Positions 3,824 to 47,700 of a stretch of DNA of 64,000 bases are shown one piece after another (the first letter of the stretch is position 1; each line of letters starts with the position of its first letter). Source of the DNA: the human T2T-CHM13v2.0 reference genome, Homo sapiens. The notes under the pieces were generated by a model that made no database searches, was not told where the DNA came from, and saw only the letters and a program-made list of their open reading frames with translations. The position numbers and the translations under genes were made by a program. The stretch lies in contig CP086569.2 of assembly GCA_009914755.4 (NCBI GenBank), forward strand, positions 19,744,001-19,808,000, given 5' to 3'.

Positions 3824-5288
3824 TTTTTTTTTTTTTTCATACCCCAGTGGCACCTGAAATGTCAGAAAGAAAGAACCATTCACTCCCTTGAATTGGGTGA
3901 AGCCATGGAGCCAAGTGGTCTAGCTCAGTGGATGTCACCCCTATGGAGTCTAGCAAGCTAAAATCCACTGCCTCGAAATTCTTGCTGCCAGCACAGTAGT
4001 CTGAAGCCAACCTGGAATGCTTGAGATTGGTGGGGACAGGGATGTCCACCATTACTGAGGCTTGAGTAGGTGGTTTTTCCCTTTACAGTATAAACAAAGC
4101 CACTGGGAAGTCACCGCAGCTCAGCAAAGCTGCTGTAGCCAGACTGCCTACCTAGATTCCTCCTCTTTGGTCAGAGCATCTCTGAAAGAATGGCAGCAGC
4201 CCCAGTTAGGGGCTTATAGACAAAATTTCCAACTCCCTGAAACAGAGCCCCTGGGGGAAAGGGTGGCTGTAGGTACAGCTTCAGCAGACTTAAACCTTCC
4301 TTCCTGCTGGCTCTGAAGAGAGCTGCAGATCTCCAAAAGACTGCCTCCTCAAGTGGGTCCATGAAGCTCATGACTCTTGATGAGGAGACACCTCCCAGCA
4401 GGGATTGACAAGCACATCATAGAGGAGTGCTCTGGCTGGCACCTGGCAGGTGCCCCTCTGGGATGAAGCTTTCAGAGGAAGGAACAGGCAGCAATCTTTG
4501 CTTTTCTGCATCCTCTGATAGTGATACACAGGCAAAAATGGTCAGAAGTGGACTGCCAGCAAAGTCCAGCACACCTGCAGCAGAAGGGCCTGATTGTTAG
4601 AAGGAAAACTAACAACAGAAAGGCATAGTATCAACATCTACTAAAAGGATTTCCTCTCTATATAGGAATACACATATATACTACATATTCAAGTTTTATT
4701 TTATATATATAAATTTATATATATATAATGTTATATATATATATTGAATATATATATATTCAAAGGTCACCAACATCAAAGAATGAAGGCACATAAATGA
4801 ACAAAGATGAAAAAAGAAATCGCAAAAAGGCTGAAAATTCCAAAAACGAGAACACCTCTTCTCTTCCAAAGGATCACAACTCCTCGCCAGCAAGAAAACA
4901 GAACTGAATAGAGAATGAGTTTGAGGAATTGATGGAAGTAGGTTTCAGAAAGTGGGTAATAACAAACTCTTCCGAGCAAGAAAGAAAGTTCTAACCCAAT
5001 GCCAGGAAGCTAAAAACCTCAAAAAAAGGTCAGGGGAATTGCTAACTGGAATAAAGAGTTAAAGGAAAAACATAAATAACATGATGGAGATGAAAAACAC
5101 AGCACAAAGACTGCATGAAGCATACACAAGTATCAATAGCCAAATCGATGAAGTGGAAGAAAGGATATCAAAGACTGAAGATCAATTTAATGCAACGAAG
5201 CATGAAGAAAAGGATAGAGAAAAAGGAATAAAAAGGAACAAACAATGTCTCCAAGAAATATGGGACTATTTGAAAAGACTAAACCTAC
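3824..5288 (+). mobile_element. L1 LINE 5' fragment (older L1PA-type 5'UTR plus ORF1 N-terminus)
   Basis: 5'UTR motifs CAGCACAGTAGTCTGAAGCCAACCTGG and CTGCCTCCTCAAGTGGGTCC, then GAAGGAAAACTAACAACAGAAAGG. The ORF1 N-terminal coiled-coil is translated in track ORF 5081-5416 (…[18 protein letters not shown], compare L1 ORF1p KRIKRNEQSLQEIWDYVKRPNL). A TA-rich microsatellite sits at 4687-4768. The element ends at the Alu at 5289. Confidence 0.7.
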
Positions 5289-5590
5289 TTTGTTTGTTAG
5301 TTTGTTTGAGATGGAGTCTTGCTCTATCGCCCAAGCTGGAGTGCAGGGGAGCGATCTCGGCTCACTGCAACCTCCTCCTCCCAGGTTCAAGGGATTCTCC
5401 TGCTTCAGCCTCCTGAGTAGCTGGCATTAAAGGCATGTACCATCATGCCGGGGTAAGTTTTGTAATATTAGGAGAGACAGAGTTTCGCCATATTGCCAAA
5501 GCTGGTCTTTGACTCCTGGCCTCAAGTGATCTGCAGACCTCAGACTCTCAAAGTGCTGAGATTAGAGTCATGAGCTACCATGCCCAGCCC
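5289..5590 (-). mobile_element. Alu SINE (minus orientation)
   Basis: Opens with the T-rich rc of the A-tail, then GAGATGGAGTCTTGCTCTATCGCCCAAGCTGGAGTGCAG… and ends …GAGCTACCATGCCCAGCCC. Confidence 0.9.
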
Positions 5591-5959
5591 AATTTCAACT
5601 TGTTTTATAAAATTTCTGTGACATCCTCCACCTTCCCTTCACCCACAAAATGTTAGAATTCCAAAATAGGGGCCTTTGAAGAATCTCCAAGGAACACTTG
5701 TCCCAGGGACCCTGAGGAGGTAGCTACTCAGAATTAGATGACAGATTACACTGGGAAATTGAGGACAAGAAGAGAACCTAGGATAGTTTCCAAATGTCTA
5801 GCTGAGGGGAACAAACAGAATGTGGCCTCTCTTCTAAGATGCCCTGATCCCAATCTGTAAAACTTGTGAGTATGTTAGGGCTCATGACAAAGACAAATTA
5901 CGGTTGCTCATCAGTTGACCTTAAGATAGGAAGATTGCCCAGGATGATCCACCTTGATC

Positions 5960-6297
5960 AATGCCATTAAAATGGCCTTAAAGGTAGAAGATGGAAGCAA
6001 AAGAGGAAAGTCAGGAGGAAGTCACAGAAGAATGGAAAAGCAATGTGATATTGATGGCTTTGAAAACAGAGGATGGGGCTATAGCTAAGGAATGCAGGAG
6101 GCCCCTAGAAGCTAGAAAGTACAAGGAAACAAATTCTCCTCTAGAGCATCCAAGAGGGACACAGTCCTGAGCACACTTAGATTGTAGCCCAACAAGTACC
6201 TGTGTTGCACTCCTGTGCCACAGAAGTGTAAGATGATACACTTGTCTAAGCCACTAAATTTGTAATAATTTGTTACAGTGGCAGTAGGAAACTAAAA
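5960..6297 (+). mobile_element. MaLR LTR fragment (MLT1-type)
   Basis: 3' end …CTTGTCTAAGCCACTAAATTTGTAATAATTTGTTACAGTGGCAGTAGGAAACTAA matches the characteristic MLT1 terminus (…TTAAGCCACTAAGTTTGTGGTAATTTGTTACAGCAGCAATAGAAAACTAATAC). Assignment is from memory, not alignment. Confidence 0.4.
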
Positions 6298-9830: not shown

Positions 9831-10179
9831 TCTTGCTCAATTATCTGGCTGTAACGTGTTCATTATTGCTTCTGAGAGGTTCGGTTGCTTTTCTTTTTAT
9901 TTACATGTAAACATTATGAGGTCAGGCTCGCCTTTCCTCACAATACACAATGGTGGCTACTCAAAAACATTTAGCTTTGTGGATCTCTACCCTAAGCCAT
10001 CTTGCTTCCAAGAGTTCATCTGGCAATGTCTGGGGACACTTTTGGTTGTCTCGCTTGGAAGAGAAGGTACTATTGAAAAAATAGAGACCAAGGATACAGC
10101 TGAATCTACAAAGCACAGGACAGCCTCCCAAAACAAAGAATCTGCCGGCTCCAAAAGGCAACAGTGGCTCCATTAAGAA

Positions 10180-10740
10180 ACCCTGGGTCAGCTGAATATT
10201 TGGCTGTTAACCACCAAAGCAAAGACCCCAGGAGGGCAGAAACTTGCAGCTGGAAGTTCTCAGTGAGTGGATGAGCCGGCCAGGGCGTGGCAGATCTGAT
10301 AGGGCTACCCGAGGGAGGGGTGGAGATATAGCACCAGCCTGTACCGTCAGGCAGGGCCAGTGAACTCCCACAGGGATTCAAAATGCCTGTTTCGACTCAC
10401 TCCATCCTCTACCTGAAGCGACAGGCCAAGGAGGGAAAGACAATCTCAGTCCCGCTGTGAAGACCGGCACCCGGCTGCTTCAGCCGAGAGCCCCGGGGGC
10501 AGATTTTTGGATACCCTGGATATGCTCCCTCGAGATAGGGGTGGAGATTCTGGCCGGTGCTAGGCCACCAAATGCATGTGCCATGTATCTTCAGACCAGG
10601 AAGACTGTACTAAGTAGGTCCCCAAGAGGGGCAGGATGCAATGCGACAGCTGTAATCTCGCGTTGTTTTTCAGTCGTTCACCTTCCCTCTACCCCCCAAG
10701 TAACCTGTAACCATTTTGTCTTCTAATCCAACTAGCTCCC
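10180..10740. other. GC-rich (about 57 % GC), CpG-retaining unique segment of unknown class
   Basis: I count about 17 CpGs in about 560 bp (for example CCCGCTGTGAAGACCGGCACCCGGCTGCTTCAGCCGAGAGCCCCGGGGG and TCTCGCGTTGTTTTTCAGTCGTTC). That is roughly twice the density of the flanking AT-rich DNA. It carries no Alu, L1 or LTR12 hallmarks I recognise. Confidence 0.35.
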
Positions 10741-13140: not shown

Positions 13141-13426
13141 TTTTATTTGACATGGAGTATTACCCTGTTGCTCATGCTGGAGTGCAGTGGCCTGATCCAA
13201 GGCTGCCAACTTCACCTCCTGGGTTCAAGCGATTCTCCCACCTCAGCCTCCGAAGTATCTGGCATGACAGGTGCTTGCCCAAGAACCTGGCTAATTTTTG
13301 TATTTCTAGTAGAGGCGGGGTTTCACTGTGTTGGCCAGGTTTGTCTCCAACTCCATATCTCAAGTGATCCATTTGCCTTGGCCTCCAAAATGCTGGGAAT
13401 ACAGATGTGAGCCACAATGCGTAGCC
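13141..13426 (-). mobile_element. Alu SINE (minus)
   Basis: …GCTCATGCTGGAGTGCAGTGGCCTGATCCAAGGCTGCCAACTTCACCTCCTGGGTTCAAGCGATTCTCC … CAAAATGCTGGGAATACAGATGTGAGCCACAATGCGTAGCC. Confidence 0.85.
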
Positions 13427-13540
13427 TTAGTACAGTTTTTGAATTCAAATTTTAAATGTGCTGAGTTTCTTCATACACAACCAAATTTTACTTATCAGCC
13501 TTATGAATGTATTTATTTACATACTTATTTTTTAGAAGTA

Positions 13541-13812
13541 GGGTCTCTCTCTGTCACCAAGTCTGGAGGGCATTGGCATAATCTCAGCTTACTGAAACAT
13601 CTGCCCCTCCTGGGTTCAAGCAATTATGCTACTGCAACCTTTCAAGCAGCTGGGATTACTGGCACACACCACCACATTCTGCTAATTTTTTTTTTTTTTG
13701 ATAGAGTCTGGGTTACTCTTGGTGGGCAGTGTTGTTTTCAATCCGGAGCTCATGTCATCTCCCCTCTTAGGCTGCCCAAGTGCTGTAATTACAACTGTGA
13801 GACACTGTGCCT
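13541..13812 (-). mobile_element. Alu SINE (minus, more diverged, AluJ-like)
   Basis: GTCACCAAGTCTGGAGGGCATTGGCATAATCTCAGCTTACTGAAACATCTGCCCCTCCTGGGTTCAAGCAATTATGC … internal poly-T linker … GCTGCCCAAGTGCTGTAATTACAACTGTGAGACACTGTGCC. Confidence 0.8.
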
Positions 13813-15369
13813 TGTCTGGAATTCTTTTTTGATATATCTTTCTCTAACTTTCTAATAATTATATACTTCTACTTATCGTGTACTTAGCAATTGTAAAATT
13901 CTTATAACAGGAATTAATCCCACTCAAACAACTAAATGGTTTCTGCTAACATAAAATAACAATGTAAAATATTTTCTTTAAAGGAAATCCAGTTGAAAAC
14001 ATATTCATGTTCTTAGAGTAGACATAATTATTGATATATACTGTAGCAGAAATATGTATAAATGCTTGCCCAAAATATCTGTTTAACAGAATTTTAAGTG
14101 CACTTTAGTCATGATTGTAAGGACAGTGAAAATTTAGTTTATTTACATTTTTAAATACTACTTTTAAAAAGTTGTAATTGAATAACATTTGATGTAAAAC
14201 ACTTAGAGATTAATTACATGATCAAGAAAGAAATTTTATTATTTTAACTCAAACTTTTTGTAATTTATCTAATAGTGTAAGAAAGAGCTTGTATTTTGCT
14301 TTGTTAGCATAGTTGTAATCTTATCTTTTCTGAAGGAATTTTCTTAATCTCTTATTCATAAATATATTATAACGTATCATTTAAACATTGCTATAAAACT
14401 GTGTCTAATTAGTAACATTTTATTTTCTTAAGGTATTTAATATGCAGGATTGATTGCACTCTATAAAATTCACCCTACTCCCAGTTTCTAGAAATCACTG
14501 GTAAGATTACTTAGTTTATATAATCTACTTCGGTTTGTTAATTATAACTGAATAGCTTTATAAAGGTAAACTATTTCCTTTTAACAGGTCTCAGGATCTG
14601 ATAAAGAAAACCAAAAATATAGGAGCCTACATATTTGTAAACTATAGCAAGGTTTTTCTATGTACTTTTCCTTATAAAGTAATAAAGCTAATTTTGAGGG
14701 AGAAGAGTAAGAAATTTAATTAGATTTAAATTACATGTTTTTCCTTGCTGACCATATCTTACTTTTTAAACAATAGTTCACCTGTTCTGCAGGTCATTAT
14801 TCCCATGTTTTCATTTTTGTAATAACTTTCAGATAGTCAAATAAGAAAACTTCAGACGGTATCAAGGGCCCTACAGACACACTGAAAGATACTGTTTGTA
14901 AAAATATCCACTATTGGGAACACTTCTTAAAAAAAAACAAAAAACAAACCAAAAAAAACTTCAAAAATCTGACTTTTAGGCCAAGTGTCTTTGTATACTA
15001 GGTATGCCTCTCAAGTACAATTGATAGAGTATTAACTGTATTAATATGTCATTAAAGAAGAAAATATGTGTTCAGTAATGTGTAATATAACTTCTGTTAT
15101 ATATAAGCACCATCCACTGTAACTCTTTGTGATGGCGGAAATGTCTTTATCTATACTGTTTAATGTGGTAGCTGCTAGTCTCATGCGACTATTGAGCAAT
15201 TGAACAGTAGCTAGTGTAACTGAATAATTCAATTTTTAATTTATATTTAATTAGCTCCATGTGCTTATTGACTATCACAATGAACAGCATAATTCAAAGG
15301 TATATAGTTAGTAGCTATTGCTTAATTTTTACTTCAAAAGAAAAGGAGATATTACAGAACAATCTATGG

Positions 15370-15658
15370 GGCAGGAAAAGTGCCTCATGCAGGACTTTGG
15401 GAGGCTGAAGCAGGAGGAACACTGAAGGCCTGGAGTTAGAAATCAGCATGGCCAACACAGTGAAACCCCATCTCTACTACAAATTCAAAAATTTGCGAGG
15501 TGTGGTGGCAAGTGCCTTTTATCCCAGCTATGCTAGAGGCTGAGGCAAGATAATCACTTGAACCTGGGAGGGGATATTTGCAGTGAGCTGAGATCATGTG
15601 ACTGCACTCCAGCCTGGGTGACCTAGCTAGGTGCCATTTTACTCCCCACCAAGGAAAT
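15370..15658 (+). mobile_element. Alu SINE (plus)
   Basis: …CAGGACTTTGGGAGGCTGAAGCAGGAGGAACACTGAAGGCCTGGAGTTAGAAATCAGCATGGCCAACACAGTGAAACCCCATCTCTACTACAAA … GTGACTGCACTCCAGCCTGGGTGACC. Confidence 0.85.
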
Positions 15659-15762
15659 AAAGAGAGAGAGAGAGAGAGGGAGGGAGGGAGGGAGGAAGGA
15701 AGGAAGGAAGGAAGGAAGGAAGGAAGGAAGGAAGGAAGGAAGGAAGGAAGGAAGGAAGGAGA
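15659..15762. repeat. compound (GA)n-(GGGA)n-(GGAA)n microsatellite abutting the Alu tail
   Basis: agagagagagagagagagggagggagggagggaggaaggaagg…, with about 18 consecutive GGAA units. Confidence 0.9.
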
Positions 15763-18399
15763 AACTGTGGTAACACTTCTCACACTTCTCATGCTGTGGC
15801 ACCAACTTTGGGGGTCTGTCCCTTGCAGACCCCTGAACCCGCAACGGATGAATAAAGTACACTGAAACATAAATATTCTGCTTTGCCAGTCCAGCTGAAG
15901 CTGAGTGTCTGAGCCACTTACAGACTCCAGTAGAGTTTTGTAAACAGTGGCAACAGTGGCCCTGACCAGCAAGTGAAACTCACACTTATCAGTAAAGATT
16001 AATTGACAAAGACTTGAGTCAACATCACTGGGGCAACACTGACATTGCGGACTTCCCTAAGCACTTAAGCACCCAGGGTACCTCAAAGGTTAGTCTTCAG
16101 ACCACATGAGTAAACAAGCTAGCTGCATAACCTCCCCACATTCCTTTGTCAGTACTTTAATTTATTTAACTAAAGGTAAAGAAAGTCACCTTCAACCGTA
16201 TCTATTACTGAGGTTATGCAAAGTCTCTGGCCTTCCAAGATGGTTTGTGGCTATTACTATAATTATCTTTAATATTTTTCCCCCCAGACTGACTGAGCCC
16301 CCTAACAGGAAAGAATCTATACATTTACTATATTACATTATCTTTAGAAATAGTCTTTCTATCTTTACAGAGTCTCTTTACATCCATCTCATTCAGAAAG
16401 ATATCTGGGTGACAACCCTTACCAGCTTTACCTAGCATCCCAGTAAAATTTCTGGAAGTCAGAAAAATGATGAGTAGTGCTAGTCATCCTAGTGGCAAAA
16501 TTTGGATAGAACCCTTAGCTAACAATAAAATAACTTCTGGTAAATTAAAATCATTTTAAAAAGCAATGGCTTCTAATTAAACAACAGAAAACTTATAGGA
16601 AGATATATTGTACTGAACTGTCTTCTGCCCCCTGAGTCAGAGACCTGTGATCTTATCCTATTTTAGTATATCTACACTCAGGAGATGCTAAGCTGTAGAT
16701 ACTAACAGTACTTTCCTCCTAGACTCTAGTCACCCGTTCTTCCCCCTCTTAATATTTCGTTTGACAGCCAAAGATACACAGACAATGATATGCACAAATT
16801 TTGGATGAAGAAAGAAAATTTGGACACTGACACTTTGCTTTCTGAAAGTTAAAATCCTTATCTATAATTGGCAAAAGAATAGACACATACATCAATGGGA
16901 ACAGATATAGAGAATCCAGAAATAGATTCACACAAATATTGTCAATTAATTTTTTTTAACAATGGTTCAAAGGCAATTCAATAGAGGAAAGATAGTCTTT
17001 TGAATATGTGGCTCTGAAATAATTGAATATTCATGTGCATGGAAATGAACCATAAATCTAAATGTAAATTGCAAAACTATAAAATTTCCAAATAAAAACA
17101 AGAGAAAGTCTATGTGATCCTAAGTTTCATGATGTGATATAACACCAAAAGCAAGATACATAAAAGAAAAAAATTGAGTTAGACTTAATTGAAATTAAAA
17201 CATCTCTGTGGAAGACACTGTTAAGAGAATGAAAAGACCTACTGTCAAACCCATAAAGTTTTACATCACCAAGAATAAACATTAGTGTTTGCAAATGTTG
17301 GTCTGCTGATCCCTGGATAGAATGCAGACTGTGTCAAAACAATCTAACTGTAATCCACTCACTGAAGAGGATGGGGATGGGGATGAGGTGCTGAGCGACT
17401 AATGTTTTTAGTTTCAAGAAACTAAAAATTTCAAAAATAATTTACGCTTCTCGTTTAAAGCAAAGTTTCAGATTATTTGGAAGGATATAAAGTGAAAGCA
17501 AACTAGCAATTTGTGCCCATGTTTTCTAATCTGACTCTCAACTGATAACTACAATTTTAATAATTTTGTTTCTTGGTTATTTTTGCAGAATTGATGGAGT
17601 TTAAAACTCTATGTATTTCTAATTAAAACACACAATCAAATAAAATTATATTATAGATCCTTTTGGCAATTTGCTTTTTCTATCAACCAATATATCTATC
17701 TGTAGCAGTATATTGAGACTCATTATTTTTAAAGTAAATATTTAACCCCCTATTAATGGAGATTGAGTTGTCTTATTGTATGCTTTTTTCCAATAGAGGC
17801 AACCAGTATGCAGTGTGCACGCTCTGTGTGCTTGTAAAAGTACAGCTGTGTGAATTCATGGAATTGGAATGAATAGATTACTGCATTTTGAATATATGTA
17901 AGCACTGACACATTCCTCTCCCAAGTGAATGAGCACAGCTATACTTCCACTCCATTCCCAACATTAGCATTATCAAAAGTTTAATCTTAATGGTGTTATA
18001 GGGAAAATAATGGTTTCTTCGCTTTATTAATTTGCATTTATGATTTTGTTCATGTTTATTCAACATCTGATAATCTTGGTTATCTTTGTTTGACATTTTA
18101 TTTTTTCTACAATCTGTCCATTTTTTTCACATTTTTCAGTTTTGTTTTCTTTTCTTTTAACTGATTTGTAAGAGCTCTTTAACGATATTACAATGTTGTA
18201 ACTTTAGTCCTGCTTATGCCTCCATATTACTGCAACTAATTTTTGAGTGTATGTTTTTCTATTTTATGCCACATGTAAATTTTTAAATTTTATGTAGTGA
18301 GATTGATGAATATTTCTCCTTATTGTTTCCAGGTTTTGTATCATGCTTGGGAAGGACTTCTTGAAGATTTATTCTTAAAAGCTATTACCAGACAAAGCT

Positions 18400-31167: not shown

Positions 31168-32690
31168 ACAGGAAAGGGGGAATTGCTGGCAAGACGTCTG
31201 AAGAAAAAGAGCTCCAGACTGCAGCTCCCAGGGAGATTGATGAAGAAAGTGAGTGATTCCTGCATTTCCACCTGAGGTACACTGTTCATCTGATAGGGAC
31301 TGGTTGAATGGTGGCTGCAGCCCATGGAGTGTGAGCTGAAGCAGGGTAGGTCATCACCTCTCCCGGGAAGCCTAATGGGTCGGGAAATTTTCTCATTTAC
31401 ACAGGAGAAGCTGTGAGGGAGTTAGCCTGAGGAACCATGCACCCTGTGCCTAAAATGTGCTTCTCCCATGGTCTTGAAAACCTGCAGACCAGGAGATTGC
31501 GTTTGGTAACTGCACCATGAGGGCCGTGGGTTTCAAGCACAAAAATGGGGTTGTTAGAAAAAACAATGAACTAATTGTAGGAGTGTTTTGTTGTTGTTGT
31601 TGTTGTTGTTTTTATTACCCCAGTGGTGCCTGGAATGCTAAGGAGACAGGACTGTTCACTCCCCTGAAAAGGAGTGCGGAGGCCAAGGAGCCAAGTGATC
31701 TGGCTTAGCAGGTGCCATCCCCGATGGTGGCAATCCAACTATGGTTCACCAGATTGAAATTCTCGCTGCCAGCACAGCAGCAGTCTGAGATCTACCTGGG
31801 ACACTGGAGCTTGGTGGGGGGATGGGCATCTTCCGTTGCTGAGGCTTGAGTAGGCTGCTTTACCTCATGGTGTAAACAAAGCCTCAGAGAAGTTTGAACT
31901 GCAGCTCAGCAAGGCTGATGTGGCCAGACTGCCAGATTTCTTCTCTCCGGGTAGGGTATTTTCGAAACAAATGATAGCAGCCCCAGTCAGGGGCTTACAA
32001 ATAAAAACCCCATCTCCCTGGGACAGAGCACCTGGGGGAAAAGGAAGCCATGGATGCAGCTTCAGCAAACTTCAACATCCCCGCCTGATGGCTCTGAAGG
32101 AGCAGCACACCTCCCATTACAGTGCACTGGCTCTGCTAATGGTCAGAGTGCCTTCTCAAGTGGAACCCTGACCTCTGTGTATCCTGACTGGGAGACACCT
32201 CCTGGCAGGGGCCGACAGACACCTTGTATTGGAGAGCACTGGCTAGCATCTGACAGATGCCCCTTGAGGATATAGCTTCAGAGAAAGAATAGCCAGCAAT
32301 CAATGAGACAGAAAATTAACAAGGATAGTCAGGACTTGAACTCAGCTGTGGACTAAGTAAACCTAATAGACATCTACAGAACTATCCACCCCCAAATCAA
32401 CAGAATATACATTCTTCTGAGTTCCACATAACATGTATTCAAAAACTGACCACATAATTGGAAGGAAAACACTCCTCAGCAAATGCAAAAGAATGGAAAT
32501 TATAGCAAAGAGCCTCCCAGACCACAGTGCAATGAAATGAGAACCCAGGATTCAGAAACTCACACAAACCTGCACAACTACATAGAAACTGAACATTTAG
32601 GAGCAGGCTGTAAATCATTGCTGGGTAAATAATGAAATAAGGTAGAAATAAAGTTGTTCTTTGAAACCAATGAACCTTTACTGTTAACCA
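31168..32690 (+). mobile_element. L1 fragment: complete-looking older L1PA-type 5'UTR joined by internal deletion to an ORF2 endonuclease-domain segment
   Basis: Start GGGGGAATTGCTGGCAAGACGTCTGAAGAAAAAGAGCTCCAGACTGCAGCTCCCAGGGAG…GATTCCTGCATTTCCACCTGAGGTAC parallels the L1 5' end (GGGGAGGAGCCAAGATGGCCGAATAGGAACAGCTCCGGTCTACAGCTCCCAGCGTGAGC…GATTTCTGCATTTCCATCTGAGGTAC). From 5'UTR sequence ending about 32275 it jumps to ORF2 sequence: …TAGACATCTACAGAACTATCCACCCCCAAATCAACAGAATATACATTC (LIDIYRTLHPKSTEYTF) … AATGAAATAAGGTAGAAATAAAGTTGTTCTTTGAAACCAATGAA ([15 protein letters not shown]). Confidence 0.7.
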
Positions 32691-41974: not shown

Positions 41975-42075
41975 TCGCCAAGGGAGAGCGAGAAGAAGGA
42001 AAGAAGAAGGGAGGGTGGGAAAAAGAAAGGAAAGAAGGAAGGTGGGAGAGAGGAAGAAAGGAAACAAAGACAAAA
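41975..42075. repeat. purine-rich (GAAGG/GGAAA)n low-complexity tract
   Basis: gggagagcgagaagaaggaaagaagaagggagggtgggaaaaagaaaggaaagaaggaaggtgggagagaggaagaaaggaaac. Confidence 0.8.
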
Positions 42076-42489: not shown

Positions 42490-43935
42490 CATCTCAGCTT
42501 GAGAGGTGACAGTGTGCTGGCAGCCCTCGCAGCCCTTGATGGCTCTCCGCGCCTCCTTGGCCGCGCTTGAGTCCTTCAGCCCGCCGCTGCCCTGTGGGAG
42601 CCCCTTTCTAGGCTGGCCATGGCGGGAGCCAGCTCCCTCAGCTTCCTGGGAGGTGTGGAGGGAGAGGCGTGGGCGGGAACCCGGGCTGCCGCATGGCGCT
42701 TGCGGGCCAGCAGGAGTTCTGGGTGGGCGTGGGCTCTGCTGGCCCTGCCCTGGCAGCGTCAGGCCCACCCGCAAGCCCCAGGCAGTGAGGGGCTTAGCAC
42801 CTGGGCCAGCAGCTGCTGTGCTCGATTTCTCGTGGGGCCTTAAGCTGCCTCCCGGCAGGGCAGAGCTTGGGACCTGCAGCCTCCCATGCCTGAGCCTCCT
42901 TCCACCCCAACGTGGGCTCCTGCATGGCCCTAGCCTCCCTGATGAGCCCTCCCCCTGCTCCAGGGCCACGGGTCGCATAGACTGCCCAAGGGCTGAGGAG
43001 TGCCTAGGAACCGCAGAGGGACTGGCAGGCAGCTCCATCTGCTGATGGGTGCAGGATCCAATGGGTGAAGCCAGCTGGGCTCCTGAGTCTAGTGGGGACT
43101 TGGAGAATCTTTATGTCTAGCTAAGGGATTATAAATACACCAATCAGCCCTCTGTAGCTAACTCAAGGTTTGTAAACACACCAATCAGAACCCTGTGGCT
43201 AGCTCAGGGTTTGTGAATGCACCAATCAGCACTCTGTATCTAGCTTAAGGTTTGTAAATGCACCAATCAGCACTCTGTGTCTAGCTCAAGGGTTTGTAAA
43301 CACACCAATTGACACTCTGTATCTGGCTAATCTAGTGGGGAGGTGGGGAACTTTTGTGTCTATCTCAGGGATTGTAAAGGCACCAATCAGCACCCTGTCA
43401 AAATAGACCAATCAGCTCTCTGTAAAACAGACCAATTGGCTCTCTGTAAAATGGACCAATCAGCAGGATGTGGGTGGGGCCAGATAAGAATAAAATCAGG
43501 CTGCGGGAGCCAGCAGTGGCAACCTGCTCAGGTGTTCTTCCACACTGTGGAAGCTTTGTTCTTTTGCTTTTTGCATTAAATCCTGCTGCTGCTCACTCTT
43601 TGGGTCCACATCGCCTTTATGAGCTGTAGCACTCACTGCGAAGGTCTGCAGCTTCACTCCTGAAGCCAGTGAGACTACAAACCCACCGGGAGGAATGAAC
43701 AACTCCAGATGTGCCACCTTAAGAGCTGTAACACTCACCACGAAGGTCTGCAGCTTCATTCCTGAGCCAGCGAGACCAGGAACCCACTAGAAGGAAGAAA
43801 CTCCGAACACATCCAAACATCAGAAGGAACAAACTCTAGACATACCACCTTTAAGAACTGTAACACTCAATCGCGAGGGTCCGTGGCCTCATTCTTGAAG
43901 TCGGTGAGACCAAGAACCCACCAGTTCCTCACACA
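42490..43935 (+). mobile_element. solo LTR12-family LTR (HERV9 LTR), about 1.45 kb
   Basis: GC-rich 5' part (GCTGGCAGCCCTCGCAGCCC…). A tandem array of about 9 CCAAT-box units (…GTTTGTAAACACACCAATCAGAACCCTGTGGCTAGCTCAGGGTTTGTGAATGCACCAATCAGCACTCTGTATCTAGC…ACCAATCAGCAGGATGTGGGTGGGGCC). 3' end GAGCTGTAGCACTCACTGCGAAGGTCTGCAGCTTCACTCCTGAAGCCAGTGAGAC…GAGACCAAGAACCCACCAGTTCCTCACACA. All are hallmarks of LTR12 (B/C/D/E). Confidence 0.85.
43140..43480 (+). promoter_or_regulatory. LTR12 internal tandem repeat carrying CCAAT boxes (NF-Y-type sites), candidate LTR promoter/enhancer module
   Basis: At least nine repeats of …ACACCAATCAG[C/A]ACTCTGT… plus GACCAATCAGC/GACCAATTGGC variants, visible directly. 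The regulatory role is from established knowledge of LTR12, not shown by this sequence. Confidence 0.4.
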
Positions 43936-44410
43936 AGCTCACCACTTTTGATGTCCAAAACACTTTGTTATGAAACTTTAATTTTCAACTTGCTTACATT
44001 GGTAAAACAAACTAATGAATTCTTGTTGAAATGAGTTGGTTACTTATATAGGAATTTTTATTAGGAGGTTTTATAACAATACCTACAAATCACTGCTATT
44101 ATGCGTTATTTACTGAGGTCAGAAATGACCCTATAATCTGGAAGTGGATCTTCTAACAATCCATTCCAGTGATGCTGAGTGTCATGTTTTACTTCTAGGT
44201 AATACGTCTCATTGGAATACATTTTGTTTGCTCTATGAATATAAAATGTGGGGCTCTTGTGCAAGAGAATGAACTTTTGAACTTCACAGACCAAGTTTAA
44301 TTCTGATTCTGTAGATGGTAACACTGTTAACAGTAATTCTCTGAGCTTCAGTTGCTCCATCTGTAAGGAAGGGGATCATGCTAGGCATCTGATAGAAATC
44401 ATGTGAAAGT

Positions 44411-44705
44411 GGCAAGGCACGGTGGCTGATGCCTGTAATCCCAGCCCTTTGGGAGGCCAATACAGGCAGATCACCTGAGGTTAGGGGTTGGAGACCAATC
44501 TGGCCAAAATGGTGAAAACCTCTCTCTACAAAAAATAAAAAAAATTAGCTGGGTGTGGTGACACACACCTGTATTTCCAGCTAACTGGGATGCTAAGGCA
44601 GGAGAATTGCTGAACCCTGGATGTGGAGGATGTAGTGAGCTGAGACTGTGCCATGGAACTCCAACCCGGGTGACAGAGTGAGACTCTGTATAAAAAAAAA
44701 AAAAA
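44411..44705 (+). mobile_element. Alu SINE (plus)
   Basis: GGCAAGGCACGGTGGCTGATGCCTGTAATCCCAGCCCTTTGGGAGGCCAATACAGGCAGATCACCTGAGGTTAGGGGTTGGAGACCAATCTGGCC … GTGAGCTGAGACTGTGCCATGGAACTCCAACCCGGGTGACAGAGTGAGACTCTGTATAAAAAAAAAAAAAA. Confidence 0.9.
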
Positions 44706-44719
44706 TGTCAATGTCTCAT

Positions 44720-47700
44720 TTTCCTGCCGCCTCTAGAGAGCTAGCTATCATCATTTGGCATATGTATAAATACCTACAGACAACATGTGGACAATTGGAT
44801 GCGTTTCGCTGATAATATTATATGGTACTTATATAGTATATAATGAAGGTTTGGTGTGCATCACAGTACATAGAGATCAGTAATATAATTCTGTGTGTCT
44901 TTCTTTATAAATGATCATACCTATACAATGGCTTGTTTAGCCATCTCCCTACTAACGGATTTGAGGTTGTCTATAATATTTTGTTTTTATACACAAAGCC
45001 CTAATATAAGGGTAGATTTTTCTCTGGTTATTTGCAATAGTCAATTGTCTATGGTGTTAATTAACCTTTTAATTTTTTAAAAAAATTCAATTACTCCTTA
45101 CTGGTAAATAGAAAAGCAATTGACTATTCACATTAACTTTGTATTCTGTGATTTTCCTATAATCAGTTATTCCAGGCGTTTTTGCTGTCATTGTTAATTC
45201 TTTGGGATTTTCCATATAGATGATCATATTATCTACAAAGAAAAAGACAATTTTATATCTTCTTTACTGGTCTATATAATTTTTATTTCCTTTTCTTGTC
45301 TTGTTACATAACCTAGAAACTCCATCACACTTTGAACTATGAATAGTGAGAGGAGACATCTGTGTCTTTTTCTTGGTCTGAGGGAGAAAATATTCAATTT
45401 CTCCTGATTAAGCAGGATATTAGCATTAAGATGTGTGGAGCTATTCTTCATAAAATCAAGGCATTGAGGACTCTACTTCTAACTTGCTCATAGTTTTTGT
45501 TTTCCATGAATTGGTGTTAAATTTTATCAAATGCTTTTTCTGGCTCAGTTTGTATGATCTGATGACTTTTCTTCTTTAACTTGCTGCTTACATTAATTGA
45601 TTTGTAAATGTGAACCAGGCTTGCATAGACAGGATACACCTCACTTTGTCATTGTGTATATATAATTTCACATATGGTAGAAATCTATTTGATAATATTT
45701 ATGGTAATAATTTTTGCATCTATGTTTATAAGAGACATTGGCCTGTAGTTTTTCTTTTGTGTAATGTCTTTATCTGTTTATCATGTAGAATTCTATTTTC
45801 TATTACTTATGTTAAGAATTTTTGCATTTATGTTTATGAGAGACATTGGCCTGTAGTTTTTCTTTTGTGCAATGTCTTTATCTGGTTTTGGTATTAGGCT
45901 CATACTTGCCACATAGCAGGAGACAAAAAGGGTTCCCTTTACTCTTATTTCATGGAAAATATTTAGAAAATTGGGATTGTTTCTTATGAGCTGGATTGCT
46001 ACCCTGCAGTTTCCATACATTAAAGTTCTGACACAAAGTACCTCAGAACTTGACCTTACTTGAAGATAAAGCCCTTAAAGAAGCCATAAGTTAAAAAGAG
46101 GCCATTAGGATGGGGCCCTTATCCTGAATGACTGGTATCCTAATAAACAGACACCAGGTGGTTTGCACATAGAGAAAAGATGATGTGAGGACACAGGGAG
46201 AAGACAGCCATTTACAAGAATGGAGAGAGTTCTCAGAAGAAACCAAACCTGTAGACACCTTAATCTTAGACTTCTAGTGTTCAGAATTGTGAAAAAAATA
46301 AAATTATGTTATTTAAGCCACACATCTTGTGGTATTTCATATGGCAGCCAAGCAGACTACTGCATGTTTATTCTTTAGAAGTTCTGTAGAATTCTGTAGT
46401 TAAATTAGGTGACTCTGGTACATTTTTGGAAAAGACATTAATTAGCAATTCATTTTCTTTATAGCTATAAGCCTATTCAAATTATCTATTTGTCTTTGTA
46501 TGAGTTCTGACAGTGATGTCTTTCAGGAATTTTGTTCTATTCATTGAAATTATCAAATTTGTGGGCATAAAGTTATTTATAATTTTTTGTTACATTTTCA
46601 TGTCCATGGGATCATTCATGATAAACCCTCTTTCATTTGTGATATTACCAAAGTGTGCCTTTTCTCTTTTTGCTTGGGTAGTATACATAGAAGTTTTTTA
46701 TTTATATTGATTTTTTAAAATTACTTCTTTTTTGGTTGCTGATTTTTTCTGTGGGCTGTTTTCAAATTTATTTTTCTCTGCTCTGATTTCTTTCTTTTCT
46801 CCTACTTGCTTTGAATTTAAATGTATCTCCTTTTCTGTACTTTACTAAGACAGAAACTTAGATTATTGATTTTAGATTTTTTTTCTAATATATGCGTTTA
46901 TTGGTTTAAAATTTCATTTGCACTCTGTATGTTTCGGTAAGTTATATTTTTATTTTCATTTAATTCAAATATTTAAAACATTTTCTTCATTACACTTTTT
47001 CTTTGGCCCATGTGTTTTTCAAGAGAGTATTATTTTATTTTCGGATATTTTAGGAATCTCCATCTACCTTTGTTATTGATGTCTAGTTTAGTTCTATTGT
47101 GGTTTGAGAATATATTTTGTTTTGTTACAGTCTCACCAATGCGCCACAGTGTAGTGGTCTCATTGTTTCAGGTATCATCCAAAATTCTTTATCTTACGGC
47201 CAAGAAAATTAAGGCATGTGGACACAAATGGTGAGGCTGGAGTGAAAGTTTAATAAGCAAAAGAAGAAAGCTCTCCACAGTGGAGGGTAGGCCTGAAAGA
47301 GGATAGCCAAGTATGAAGCTGAGTCTGGGGTTTTGATGGACTGGGAAGGGGAGGAATGTGCTGACTGGGCTGCAGACTCTATTCGAGAAAGCAGCACTTA
47401 GAAAGAGGTATGAGAGCGTAAAGGACCAATTGGAGACAGAGGTGAAGGCTTGGCCCAGAATCTTGTCCTGGGAACAATCAGCAACTGAAGTGATGATTCA
47501 CCCTATGTAAATGTAGACTTAGCCTACAGCCAGTTACAGAAATGTAAGCATATGTAAAATAGGTGAAAAGTAAGATACTAAGGCCTGCCCAGGAGAGAGA
47601 AATTTGTCCAAAAAGGAATGGAATTTGTTCATCTGGGTTCACAAAGTGAACATTTCTATTCAAGGCATGGGCTCTTTCTTATCTGGGGCCTGCAGTTTGA

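What the first reader, a model, noticed from the sequence alone, without database searches (positions are those of the whole stretch)
42490..43935. Solo HERV9 LTR12 with an intact-looking CCAAT-repeat module in an otherwise repeat-desert context
LTR12-family LTRs are among the best-documented human LTRs that act as alternative or cryptic promoters. They are normally epigenetically silenced, are reactivated by HDAC inhibitors, and contribute germline- or testis-specific transcripts of neighbouring genes. This copy keeps the GC-rich U3 5' region and about nine tandem CCAAT-box repeats (…ACACCAATCAGCACTCTGT…). It also keeps a 3' R/U5-like end, so it could launch + strand transcripts into the downstream old L1 and Alu landscape. 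It is also by far the most GC- and CpG-rich island of the window, containing the two longest non-L1 ORFs of the track.
Basis: partly seen in the sequence, partly recalled or inferred. Interest (0 to 1): 0.5.

Follow-up and report, generated by a model that had tools for sequence, protein, structure and literature searches.

The report
Ordinary decayed solo HERV9 LTR12
This is a single leftover long terminal repeat of the primate endogenous retrovirus ERV9 (family LTR12), one of several thousand in human DNA; it still carries the family's promoter motifs but is old, mutated and shows nothing unusual.

Summary
The element is real. It spans window 42500-43935 (+), 1436 bp, runs TG...CA and sits between a 4-bp direct duplication (AGCT/AGCT). 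It aligns end to end with the Dfam LTR12C consensus printed in PMC11317136: 89% identity over aligned bases, with deletions of 18, 3, 43, 78 and 2 bp. Its edges match those of LTR12 copies found in 107 human-contaminated metagenome contigs. All nine tandem CCAAT boxes are present.

Every promoter landmark described for LTR12 is also present. These are the Sp1-like box, the GATA site, AATAAAA, the GCCAGCAGTGGC start-site motif at 70% of the length, and three U5 repeats carrying U7-complementary motifs.

The copy is among the more decayed ones sampled. Only 22 of 97 consensus CpGs survive and CpG o/e is 0.31. It belongs to an older lineage of the LTR12C/D/E group, and the subfamily name could not be resolved.

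The two long ORFs are composition artefacts. The context is not a repeat desert: there are at least 13 Alus, and a full-length L1 lies 12 kb downstream whose 5' UTR is equally CpG-rich.

Promoter activity could not be tested. Most LTR12 copies are silenced.

Verdict: a known kind of element, correctly recognised, of low interest.

The parts
42496..42499 (.). Left copy of the 4-bp target-site duplication, AGCT
   Evidence: Read directly from the sequence. It is identical to 43936-43939. Two other sampled copies also show 4-bp duplications: L019 (CTTA) and L095 (TGAG).
42500..43935 (+). Solo LTR12 (ERV9/HERV9 long terminal repeat), 1436 bp, TG...CA
   Evidence: Global alignment to the Dfam LTR12C consensus covers positions 3-1579 at 89.0% identity. 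BLAST to 107 LTR12 loci starts and stops at exactly these coordinates.
42500..43087 (+). GC-rich distal U3, the '~600-bp 5' extension' typical of LTR12C/D/E. In this family it is the region bound by ZNF676.
   Evidence: GC is 68% and CpG o/e 0.35, against 75% and 0.67 in the consensus. It carries an 18-bp and a 3-bp private deletion and lacks a 43-bp consensus segment that 7 of 37 other copies also lack. The feature is defined in PMC8767690.
43088..43330 (+). U3 enhancer array. A GTGGGGA-containing spacer is followed by five 41-bp E units, each with a CCAAT box. One exact GATA-type motif, TCTGTATCTAGCT, lies at 43233.
   Evidence: TRF reports period 41, 5.1 copies, at 43117-43328. See also repeat finder families D1 and D2 and the motif scan. 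The copy is 78 bp (two units) shorter than the consensus.
43331..43375 (+). Spacer with two GTGGGGA (MZF1-like) motifs at 43335 and 43343
   Evidence: It aligns to consensus TCTGGTGGGGACGTGGAGAACC.... The gRNA #15 site of PMC11317136 lies here with 2 mismatches.
43376..43472 (+). Four promoter-proximal CCAAT units of 24-25 bp. Three read CCAATCAG and one reads CCAATTGG.
   Evidence: TRF period 24 and family D2. gRNAs #16-20, designed on the Dfam consensus, match perfectly at 43384-43478.
43472..43495 (+). Core promoter: Sp1-like GGGTGGGG (43472), GATA site AGATAA (43482) and TATA-like AATAAAA (43489)
   Evidence: A 2-bp deletion separates the GATA and TATA-like motifs relative to the consensus. 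Their roles are described in PMC11853044 and PMC7641743.
43509..43520 (+). Start-site motif GCCAGCAGTGGC (inverted repeat GCCANNNNTGGC). The predicted U3/R border and start site are at GTGGC, 43516-43520.
   Evidence: Exact match at 70.3% of the element's length. AATAAAA lies 20 nt upstream of the motif and 27 nt upstream of GTGGC. This matches the published description of 70% and about 30 nt.
43575..43580 (+). R-region poly(A) signal / 'TATA II', changed from AATAAA(T) to ATTAAA(T)
   Evidence: Of the 19 other sampled copies in which the GCCAGCAGTGGC start-site motif could be located, 18 keep AATAAA at this position.
43617..43935 (+). U5 with three B-type repeat units. Each carries a U7-complementary 'HDE-like' motif: 43619 (2 mismatches), 43721 (perfect) and 43853 (1 mismatch).
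   Evidence: the repeat finder family D4. The motif scan is; there the U7 sequence was taken from memory, while the motif concept comes from PMC11417402. Spacing of 102 and 132 nt matches the consensus.
43936..43939 (.). Right copy of the 4-bp target-site duplication, AGCT
   Evidence: Read directly from the sequence.

Best explanation
Window 42500-43935 (+) is a solitary long terminal repeat of the class I endogenous retrovirus ERV9 (HERV9). It belongs to family LTR12 and to the LTR12C/D/E group that carries the ~600-bp 5' extension.

A provirus integrated here and made a 4-bp AGCT duplication. Recombination between its two LTRs then removed the internal genes and left one LTR (inferred from the anatomy).

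The LTR keeps the family's promoter layout:
- nine NF-Y (CCAAT) sites in 41-bp and 24-bp tandem units;
- GTGGGGA and GATA motifs;
- an Sp1-like box and a TATA-like AATAAAA;
- the GCCAGCAGTGGC initiator at the U3/R border;
- U5 repeats with U7-complementary motifs.

If it were de-repressed, transcription would start near 43516-43520 and run rightward on the + strand (inferred by analogy with studied copies).

Its default state is most likely silent, as for most LTR12 copies: DNA-methylated and in H3K9me3/HDAC-repressed chromatin. The loss of about three quarters of its consensus CpGs is the footprint expected from long-term germline methylation. Nothing here suggests it does more than the typical copy.
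For: **Shown here**
- End-to-end alignment to the Dfam LTR12C consensus: 1275 matches and 157 mismatches, 89.0%.
- Homology to 107 independent LTR12-bearing contigs starts and ends at exactly 42500 and 43935, and none of them shares the flanks.
- TG...CA termini and an AGCT/AGCT duplication. Two other copies also show 4-bp duplications.
- Nine tandem CCAAT boxes.
- All published landmarks are present at the published relative positions.
- The 5' extension that defines LTR12C/D/E is present.
- Five gRNAs designed on the consensus match perfectly in the proximal promoter.
- CpG fate: of 97 consensus CpGs, 22 are retained and 37 are now TG or CA.
- No other LTR12 or ERV9-internal similarity was found in the window.

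**From the literature**
- Most LTR12 copies are methylated and silenced, and 10-60% are NF-Y-bound, mostly in closed or unmarked chromatin.
- Promoters are rare among NF-Y-bound LTR12 sites.
Against: - No expression, chromatin or methylation data could be consulted, so both 'silent by default' and 'start site at 43516-43520' are inferences.
- The subfamily is unresolved. The copy lacks a 43-bp segment of the LTR12C consensus. At sites that separate older sampled copies from the main LTR12C-like group it carries the 'old' state (9:1 and 9:0), so it may be LTR12D or LTR12E rather than LTR12C.
- The 11% substitution divergence (6.6% at non-CpG sites) is high for a family said to be 30 My old or less. 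Part of it is probably mismatch between subfamily and consensus.
- The consensus was transcribed from a machine-read PDF (1579 nt against the stated 1577 nt), so one or two apparent indels may be transcription errors.
Confidence: 0.9

Rival explanations
1. This copy is a functional, co-opted regulatory element. It would act as an alternative promoter or NF-Y-dependent enhancer used in germline or testis, or induced by HDAC or DNMT inhibitors, producing + strand transcripts from about 43516.
For: - The core promoter landmarks are all intact.
- Seven of the nine CCAAT boxes keep the optimal CCAATCAG, as many as or more than 19 of the 21 other sampled copies (range 2-8; only L066 has more).
- The longest stretch free of non-CpG substitutions (126 sites, 43364-43495) falls exactly on the proximal promoter. 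Permutation P is 0.013-0.024. The count is 0/86 mismatches there against 19/362 in R/U5.
- In the literature, about 25% of LTR12C copies (610 of about 2470) can be switched on by targeted CRISPRa, and LTR12C dominates drug-induced cryptic start sites.
Against: - No transcript or chromatin evidence is available.
- Heavy CpG decay implies long-term germline methylation.
- The gRNA #15 site has 2 mismatches.
- No strong splice-donor-like site (at least 8 of 9 matches to MAG|GTRAGT) lies within 3.5 kb downstream.
- No coding exon was recognised in the window. Only L1-derived ORFs hit Pfam among the 10 longest ORFs scanned.
- Typical LTR12 transcripts are short, 100-250 nt.
- Three other sampled copies (L085, L064, L099) show the same clean proximal promoter despite divergence in R/U5 as high as or higher than this copy's, so the pattern is not unique. 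Pooled family rates are similar in the two regions, 0.048 against 0.058.
- Promoter-type LTR12 sites are rare.
Confidence: 0.12
2. It is one LTR of a still-present ERV9 provirus, or a fragment of one, rather than a solo LTR.
For: None found. Several sampled metagenome copies do have polypurine-tract-like upstream flanks (GGGGAT), so proviral LTRs exist in the sample.
Against: - Identical 4-bp AGCT directly flanks both ends.
- The upstream flank is not purine-rich at the junction and the downstream flank is not primer-binding-site-like.
- No second LTR12 copy lies within the 64-kb window. The only other hit is an 81-nt, 75% R-like match at 47208-47282 on the opposite strand.
- The only reverse-transcriptase ORF found belongs to an L1.
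Confidence: 0.02
3. It is a host CpG-island promoter or a protein-coding gene, as the 239-aa and 179-aa ORFs might suggest.
For: It is the highest-GC stretch in the window and holds the two longest non-L1 ORFs.
Against: - CpG o/e is 0.31-0.38, below CpG-island criteria.
- The sequence is a dispersed multi-copy repeat.
- Neither ORF has a Pfam hit.
- Every one of 38 copies has a comparably long open stretch in this region (median 188 aa), but on different strands and frames.
- Within the GC-rich part the observed length is not beyond dinucleotide shuffles (P = 0.16).
- Subfamily indels of 18 and 43 bp break the frame.
Confidence: 0.01

Closest known systems
LTR12C (Dfam/Repbase consensus, 1577 nt), the LTR of ERV9/HERV9
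   Same: Colinear from end to end at 89% identity. It has the same order of parts: 5' extension, E-unit CCAAT array, proximal CCAAT units, Sp1/GATA/TATA-like box, GCCAGCAGTGGC start site, then three U5 repeats at the same spacing.
   Different: The copy is 141-143 bp shorter than the consensus. It has 18-, 3-, 43-, 78- and 2-bp deletions, 35 CpGs against 97, and ATTAAA instead of AATAAA in R. It carries older-lineage character states. None of 15 sampled copies, nor this one, has the two extra 5' bases (TG) of the printed consensus.
LTR12D / LTR12E (rarer relatives; n = 377 and 104 in hg19 per PMC8767690)
   Same: They share the ~600-bp 5' extension and the CCAAT array. LTR12D is described as an LTR12C variant with several indels, which fits the missing 43-bp block. 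That block is also missing in 7 of 37 other sampled copies (19%; 8 of 38 counting this one), close to the expected D+E share of about 16%.
   Different: No D or E consensus was available, so membership was not tested. Divergence from the consensus of the sampled 'old' copies is still 13.5-14.5% in the 5' region.
ERV-9 LTR upstream of the beta-globin locus control region (chr11:5293260-5294954), an NF-Y/MZF1/GATA-2 enhancer
   Same: Also a solo LTR12C-type element with CCAAT/GATA/GTGGGGA repeats and a TATA I + initiator pair.
   Different: The globin LTR is about 1.7 kb and has experimentally shown enhancer and promoter activity. This copy is 1436 bp with only 5 E units plus 4 proximal units, and no function has been shown for it.
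LTR12C promoters of GBP2, GBP5, TP63, IRGM, SEMA4D and others (Table 1 of PMC11853044)
   Same: Same family and same promoter architecture.
   Different: No gene was recognised next to this copy. Its length matches none of the listed loci exactly. Unlike the GBP5 LTR, its TATA I box is intact, and unlike the GBP2 LTR, its initiator is intact. Its 'TATA II' (AATAAAT), which those two use, is mutated.

Membership tests
LTR12 (ERV9/HERV9 LTR) | Full-length sequence similarity to a curated LTR12 consensus | tested here: met
   Global alignment to the Dfam LTR12C consensus from PMC11317136 Fig. S1: consensus 3-1579 against window 42500-43935, 89.0% identity.
LTR12 (ERV9/HERV9 LTR) | Dispersed multi-copy repeat of human DNA with shared, sharp boundaries | tested here: met
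   A 25-mer from the promoter hit 107 contigs of human-associated metagenomes. Alignments begin at 42500 and end at 43935, and the flanks are unrelated.
LTR12 (ERV9/HERV9 LTR) | Retroviral LTR termini (TG...CA) and a short target-site duplication (4 bp for class I ERVs, from established knowledge) | tested here: met
   TGAGAGG...ACACA, flanked by AGCT/AGCT. A chance 4-bp match has probability about 1/256.
LTR12 (ERV9/HERV9 LTR) | U3 enhancer of 5-17 tandem ~41-bp E units carrying CCAAT (NF-Y), GATA-type TCTGTATCTAGCT and GTGGGGA motifs | tested here: met
   Five 41-bp units plus four 24-25-bp proximal units give 9 CCAAT boxes. There are three GTGGGGA motifs and one exact TCTGTATCTAGCT.
LTR12 (ERV9/HERV9 LTR) | Start-site motif GCCAGCAGTGGC at about 70% of the length, with AATAAAA about 30 nt upstream and an Sp1 site just before it | tested here: met
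   Motif at 43509-43520 (70.3%). AATAAAA at 43489, 27 nt before GTGGC. GGGTGGGG at 43472 (definitions).
LTR12 (ERV9/HERV9 LTR) | U5 made of repeated B units | tested here: met
   Three units carrying AAGAGCTGTAACACT-like motifs at 43619, 43721 and 43853, spaced as in the consensus. The literature calls them 72-bp repeats; here the start-to-start spacing is 102 and 132 nt, the same as in the consensus.
LTR12C/D/E subgroup | ~600-bp GC-rich 5' extension upstream of the CCAAT array | tested here: met
   42500-43087 (588 bp) aligns to consensus 3-655. The feature is defined.
LTR12C specifically (rather than LTR12D or LTR12E) | Best match to the LTR12C consensus over the D and E consensi, with the subfamily-diagnostic indels | tested here: inconclusive
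   Only the C consensus was available. The copy lacks a 43-bp C-consensus block (which holds the gRNA #5 site) and carries older-group states at diagnostic sites, 9:1 and 9:0.
Solo LTR (as opposed to a proviral LTR) | Matching duplications on both sides of one LTR, with no internal ERV sequence adjacent | tested here: met
   AGCT on both sides. No other LTR12 or ERV9 similarity was found in 64 kb, and the flanks match none of the sampled loci.
Active / co-opted LTR12 promoter or enhancer | Transcription start signal, H3K4me3/H3K27ac, NF-Y occupancy, or chimeric transcripts at this locus | not testable with these tools
   No expression or chromatin data were available, and the genomic locus could not be placed. 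Only motif integrity was assessed.

The most novel reading that the evidence does not exclude
This old copy has been kept under constraint as a working NF-Y/Sp1/GATA-dependent promoter or enhancer, for example for an unannotated germline or drug-inducible transcript.

The support is that its 130-bp proximal promoter (43364-43495) has changed only at CpG sites, while the rest of the LTR has 5-7% non-CpG change.
Probability: 0.08. Interest if true: 0.3.

Novelty: already known. Interest (0 to 1): 0.1.

Why it matters
It matters little beyond correct annotation. LTR12 solo LTRs number about 4,000-6,000 in the human genome and are routinely masked. Their promoter and enhancer potential, NF-Y dependence and reactivation by HDAC or DNMT inhibitors are all well documented.

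This copy adds one more example with preserved core-promoter motifs. It would become interesting only if locus-specific data showed it drives a transcript or regulates a neighbouring gene.

A practical point for genome scans: the GC-rich 5' part of LTR12 yields long spurious ORFs and CpG-island-like composition. Neither should be read as a gene.

Tried and rejected
1. An Rfam scan of the whole window found no family at gathering score.
2. The bacterial-type promoter/terminator scan found no promoter-like site and two terminator-like hairpins, at chance level. It is not relevant to a human Pol II element.
3. Coding potential of the two ORFs was rejected. There are no Pfam hits, open stretches of similar length occur in all copies on varying frames, and the length is not beyond shuffles inside the GC-rich part.
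4. I compared region-wise divergence using a pile-up in window coordinates. It suggested the CCAAT array is better preserved than the 5' part. I rejected it as evidence of constraint because paralogous repeat units align out of register in the other copies and inflate their values.
5. I tried to name the subfamily by clustering 38 copies. The window sits on its own long branch and shares one 43-bp indel and several states with older copies, but no D or E consensus was available.
6. Brocks et al. 2017 (PMC6005702), which maps drug-induced start sites on LTR12C, is not held in the library.
7. The genomic locus could not be placed. None of the 107 metagenome contigs shares the flanks, and the copy's length matches none of the loci listed in Table 1 of PMC11853044. 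I ran no further search on hunting exons.
8. A crude splice-donor scan downstream of the predicted start site found nothing strong within 3.5 kb. This is weak negative evidence only.
Full report
**1. Checking the observation**

The region was read directly. It contains a GC-rich block followed by a run of CCAAT-containing repeats and a repeat-structured 3' end.

Nine CCAAT boxes lie between 43140 and 43460, against a window-wide density of 0.89 per kb (Poisson P about 3e-11). They form two arrays:
- five 41-bp units at 43117-43328;
- four 24-25-bp units at 43376-43472.

A 45-bp spacer separates the arrays. A tenth CCAAT at 43058 lies outside the repeats and is a mutation of consensus CCACT.

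The 5' 500 bp of the element is the most GC-rich stretch of the window, at 69%. It is not 'by far' the most CpG-rich. The region at about 56400 has the same CpG count and a higher observed/expected ratio, and it is the 5' UTR of a full-length L1.

**2. Boundaries and copy number**

A 25-mer from the proximal promoter was searched in public metagenome contigs. It hit 107 contigs, many of whose record names identify human skin, gut or oral metagenome assemblies, consistent with human DNA contamination.

BLAST of the element plus 1 kb of flank on each side showed that many alignments start at 42500 and end at 43935. None extend into the flanks. The other copies begin TGAGAGGTGACAG and end ...GAACCCACCAATTCCGGACACA, as this one does.

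The element is therefore 42500-43935, 1436 bp, TG...CA.

AGCT directly flanks both ends (42496-42499 and 43936-43939). Two other sampled copies show clean 4-bp duplications.

No second LTR12 copy or ERV9 internal sequence is in the window. The only reverse-transcriptase ORF found belongs to the L1. Together with the flanking duplication, this makes it a solo LTR.

**3. Identity**

The Dfam LTR12C consensus is printed in Supplementary Fig. S1 of Ohtani et al. 2024 (PMC11317136). I transcribed it as 1579 nt. The stated length is 1577 nt, so one or two machine-reading errors are likely.

The global alignment gives these results:
- It runs from consensus position 3 to 1579 against window 42500-43935.
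- There are 1275 matches and 157 mismatches, which is 89.0% identity.
- 45 of the mismatches are of the CpG-decay type.
- The window copy has deletions of 18, 3, 43, 78 (two E units) and 2 bp.

The features that reviews use to define LTR12 are all present (definitions):

| Feature | Finding in this copy (unless stated) |
|---|---|
| ~600-bp 5' extension of LTR12C/D/E | 42500-43087 |
| 41-bp E units with CCAAT | five units, 43117-43328 |
| GTGGGGA | three copies |
| GATA-type TCTGTATCTAGCT | one exact copy |
| Sp1-like GGGTGGGG | 43472 |
| AGATAA | 43482 |
| AATAAAA | 43489 |
| Start-site inverted repeat GCCAGCAGTGGC | 43509-43520, at 70.3% of the length |
| U5 repeat units | three, spaced as in the consensus |

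Five guide RNAs designed on the consensus (#16-20) match perfectly at 43384-43478. Guide #15, the one used for mass activation, has two mismatches.

The U5 units carry U7-complementary motifs with 2, 0 and 1 mismatches. The concept comes from PMC11417402; the U7 sequence I used was from memory.

**4. State of preservation and subfamily**

The copy is among the more decayed ones sampled.
- Its BLAST identity to the consensus ranks ninth lowest of 36.
- Its 5' region has the largest mean distance to the others among 38 copies.
- Of 97 consensus CpGs, 22 are retained, 37 are now TG or CA, and 6 are deleted.
- CpG o/e has fallen from 0.66 in the consensus to 0.31 in this copy. This is the expected trace of long germline methylation, which the literature reports for all LTR12 subfamilies.

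The missing 43-bp block is shared with 7 of the 37 other copies. The 18-bp deletion is private to this copy. At sites that separate older sampled copies from the main LTR12C-like cluster, the window carries the older state (9:1 and 9:0).

I conclude that it belongs to an older lineage within the C/D/E group. The name (C, D or E) cannot be settled without the D and E consensi.

**5. The ORFs**

The ORFs of 239 aa (minus strand, running out into the upstream flank) and 179 aa (plus strand) have no Pfam match. All 38 copies have a similarly long open stretch in this GC-rich segment (median 188 aa), on differing strands and frames. Within the GC-rich part the observed length is not unusual against dinucleotide shuffles (P = 0.16). 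They are composition artefacts.

**6. Context**

The window is not a repeat desert.
- At least 13 Alus were found by motif, the nearest starting at 44411.
- L1 fragments lie at 4565-5288, 31190-31302, 32299-32673 and 48915-49913.
- A full-length L1 lies at 56383 to about 62440 (+).
- An R-like fragment of another old LTR lies at 47208-47282 (-).
- Rfam found nothing.
- No host exon was recognised, but no proper gene search was possible.

**7. How it most likely works**

Steps shown here:
- the element is an LTR12;
- it is solo;
- its core promoter motifs are intact.

Steps inferred:
- The provirus integrated with a 4-bp duplication and was reduced to one LTR by LTR-LTR recombination.
- The LTR is normally methylated and held in repressed chromatin.
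- If de-repressed, NF-Y bound to the CCAAT boxes would open the promoter, and transcription would start at GTGGC (43516-43520) on the + strand.

Three observations limit the expectation of long downstream transcripts:
- Published data indicate that most LTR12 transcripts are short, 100-250 nt.
- Promoter-type chromatin is rare among NF-Y-bound LTR12 sites.
- No strong splice-donor-like site was found within 3.5 kb downstream (a crude test).

**8. A weak hint of constraint**

The longest run of non-CpG sites without a substitution (126 sites, 43364-43495) coincides with the proximal promoter. Permutation P is 0.013-0.024. The count there is 0/86 mismatches against 19/362 in R/U5.

Three other sampled copies (L085, L064, L099) show the same pattern despite divergence in R/U5 as high as or higher than this copy's. 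Pooled family rates do not differ much between the two regions, 0.048 against 0.058. Some 'mismatches' elsewhere are probably subfamily differences rather than decay. I record this as a lead, not a finding.

**9. Verdict**

It is an ordinary, rather old solo LTR12. Its kind, architecture and regulatory potential are already well described. I rate interest low.

Noticed in passing
window 56383 to about 62440 (+): A full-length L1 of a young primate type. It starts GGGGAGGAGCCAAGATGGCCGAATAGGAACAGCTCCGG and ends in an A-rich tail. Its 5' UTR (56383 to about 56900) has as many CpGs per 500 bp as the LTR and a higher o/e (0.56-0.80). The ORFs are broken; the longest is 374 aa and hits RVT_1. It lies 12.4 kb downstream of the LTR in the same orientation.
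   Followed up: partly
window 43364-43495: The proximal promoter of the LTR (four CCAAT units, Sp1-like box, GATA site, TATA-like box) has changed only at CpG sites plus one 2-bp deletion. It is the longest run free of non-CpG substitutions in the element (permutation P 0.013-0.024). Three other sampled copies (L085, L064, L099) show the same pattern despite equal or higher divergence in R/U5.
   Followed up: partly
window 47208-47282 (-): An 81-nt stretch 75% similar to the LTR12 R region (CCACTGTGGAGAGCTTTCTTCTTTTGCTTATTAAAC...). It is probably the R region of a different, older class I LTR on the opposite strand.
   Followed up: no
window 41981-42064: A purine-rich (GGAA/GAAA-type) simple repeat of about 84 bp, lying 435 bp upstream of the LTR.
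   Followed up: no
window 55001-56380: An extremely AT-rich tract built on TA and CA dinucleotides (GC 16.5% in 55001-56000). It lies immediately upstream of the full-length L1 insertion.
   Followed up: no
window 44411 to about 44700 (+): An Alu element 475 bp downstream of the LTR. At least 12 further Alus are spread across the window. The 175-aa and 178-aa ORFs at 13328-13855 and 15436-15972 lie next to or over Alu motif hits (13215 and 15536).
   Followed up: partly
loci L001-L107 (metagenome contigs): 107 contigs, many from human skin, gut or oral metagenome assemblies, carry LTR12 sequence, consistent with human DNA left in the assemblies. L021/L052 and L081/L103 are near-duplicate contigs of the same loci.
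   Followed up: partly
Dfam LTR12C consensus, positions 1-2 (PMC11317136 Fig. S1) against window 42498-42499: The printed consensus begins TGTGAGAGG. The window copy and all 15 sampled copies with 5' flank begin at TGAGAGG with unrelated bases before it, and the target-site duplications fit that start. The first two consensus bases seem not to belong to real copies.
   Followed up: partly
window 10000-10700: The third most GC- and CpG-rich patch of the window (GC about 56%, 17 CpG per 500 bp). It was not identified. Its start resembles an old interspersed repeat (…GGCAATGTCTGGGGACACTTTTGGTTGTC…).
   Followed up: no
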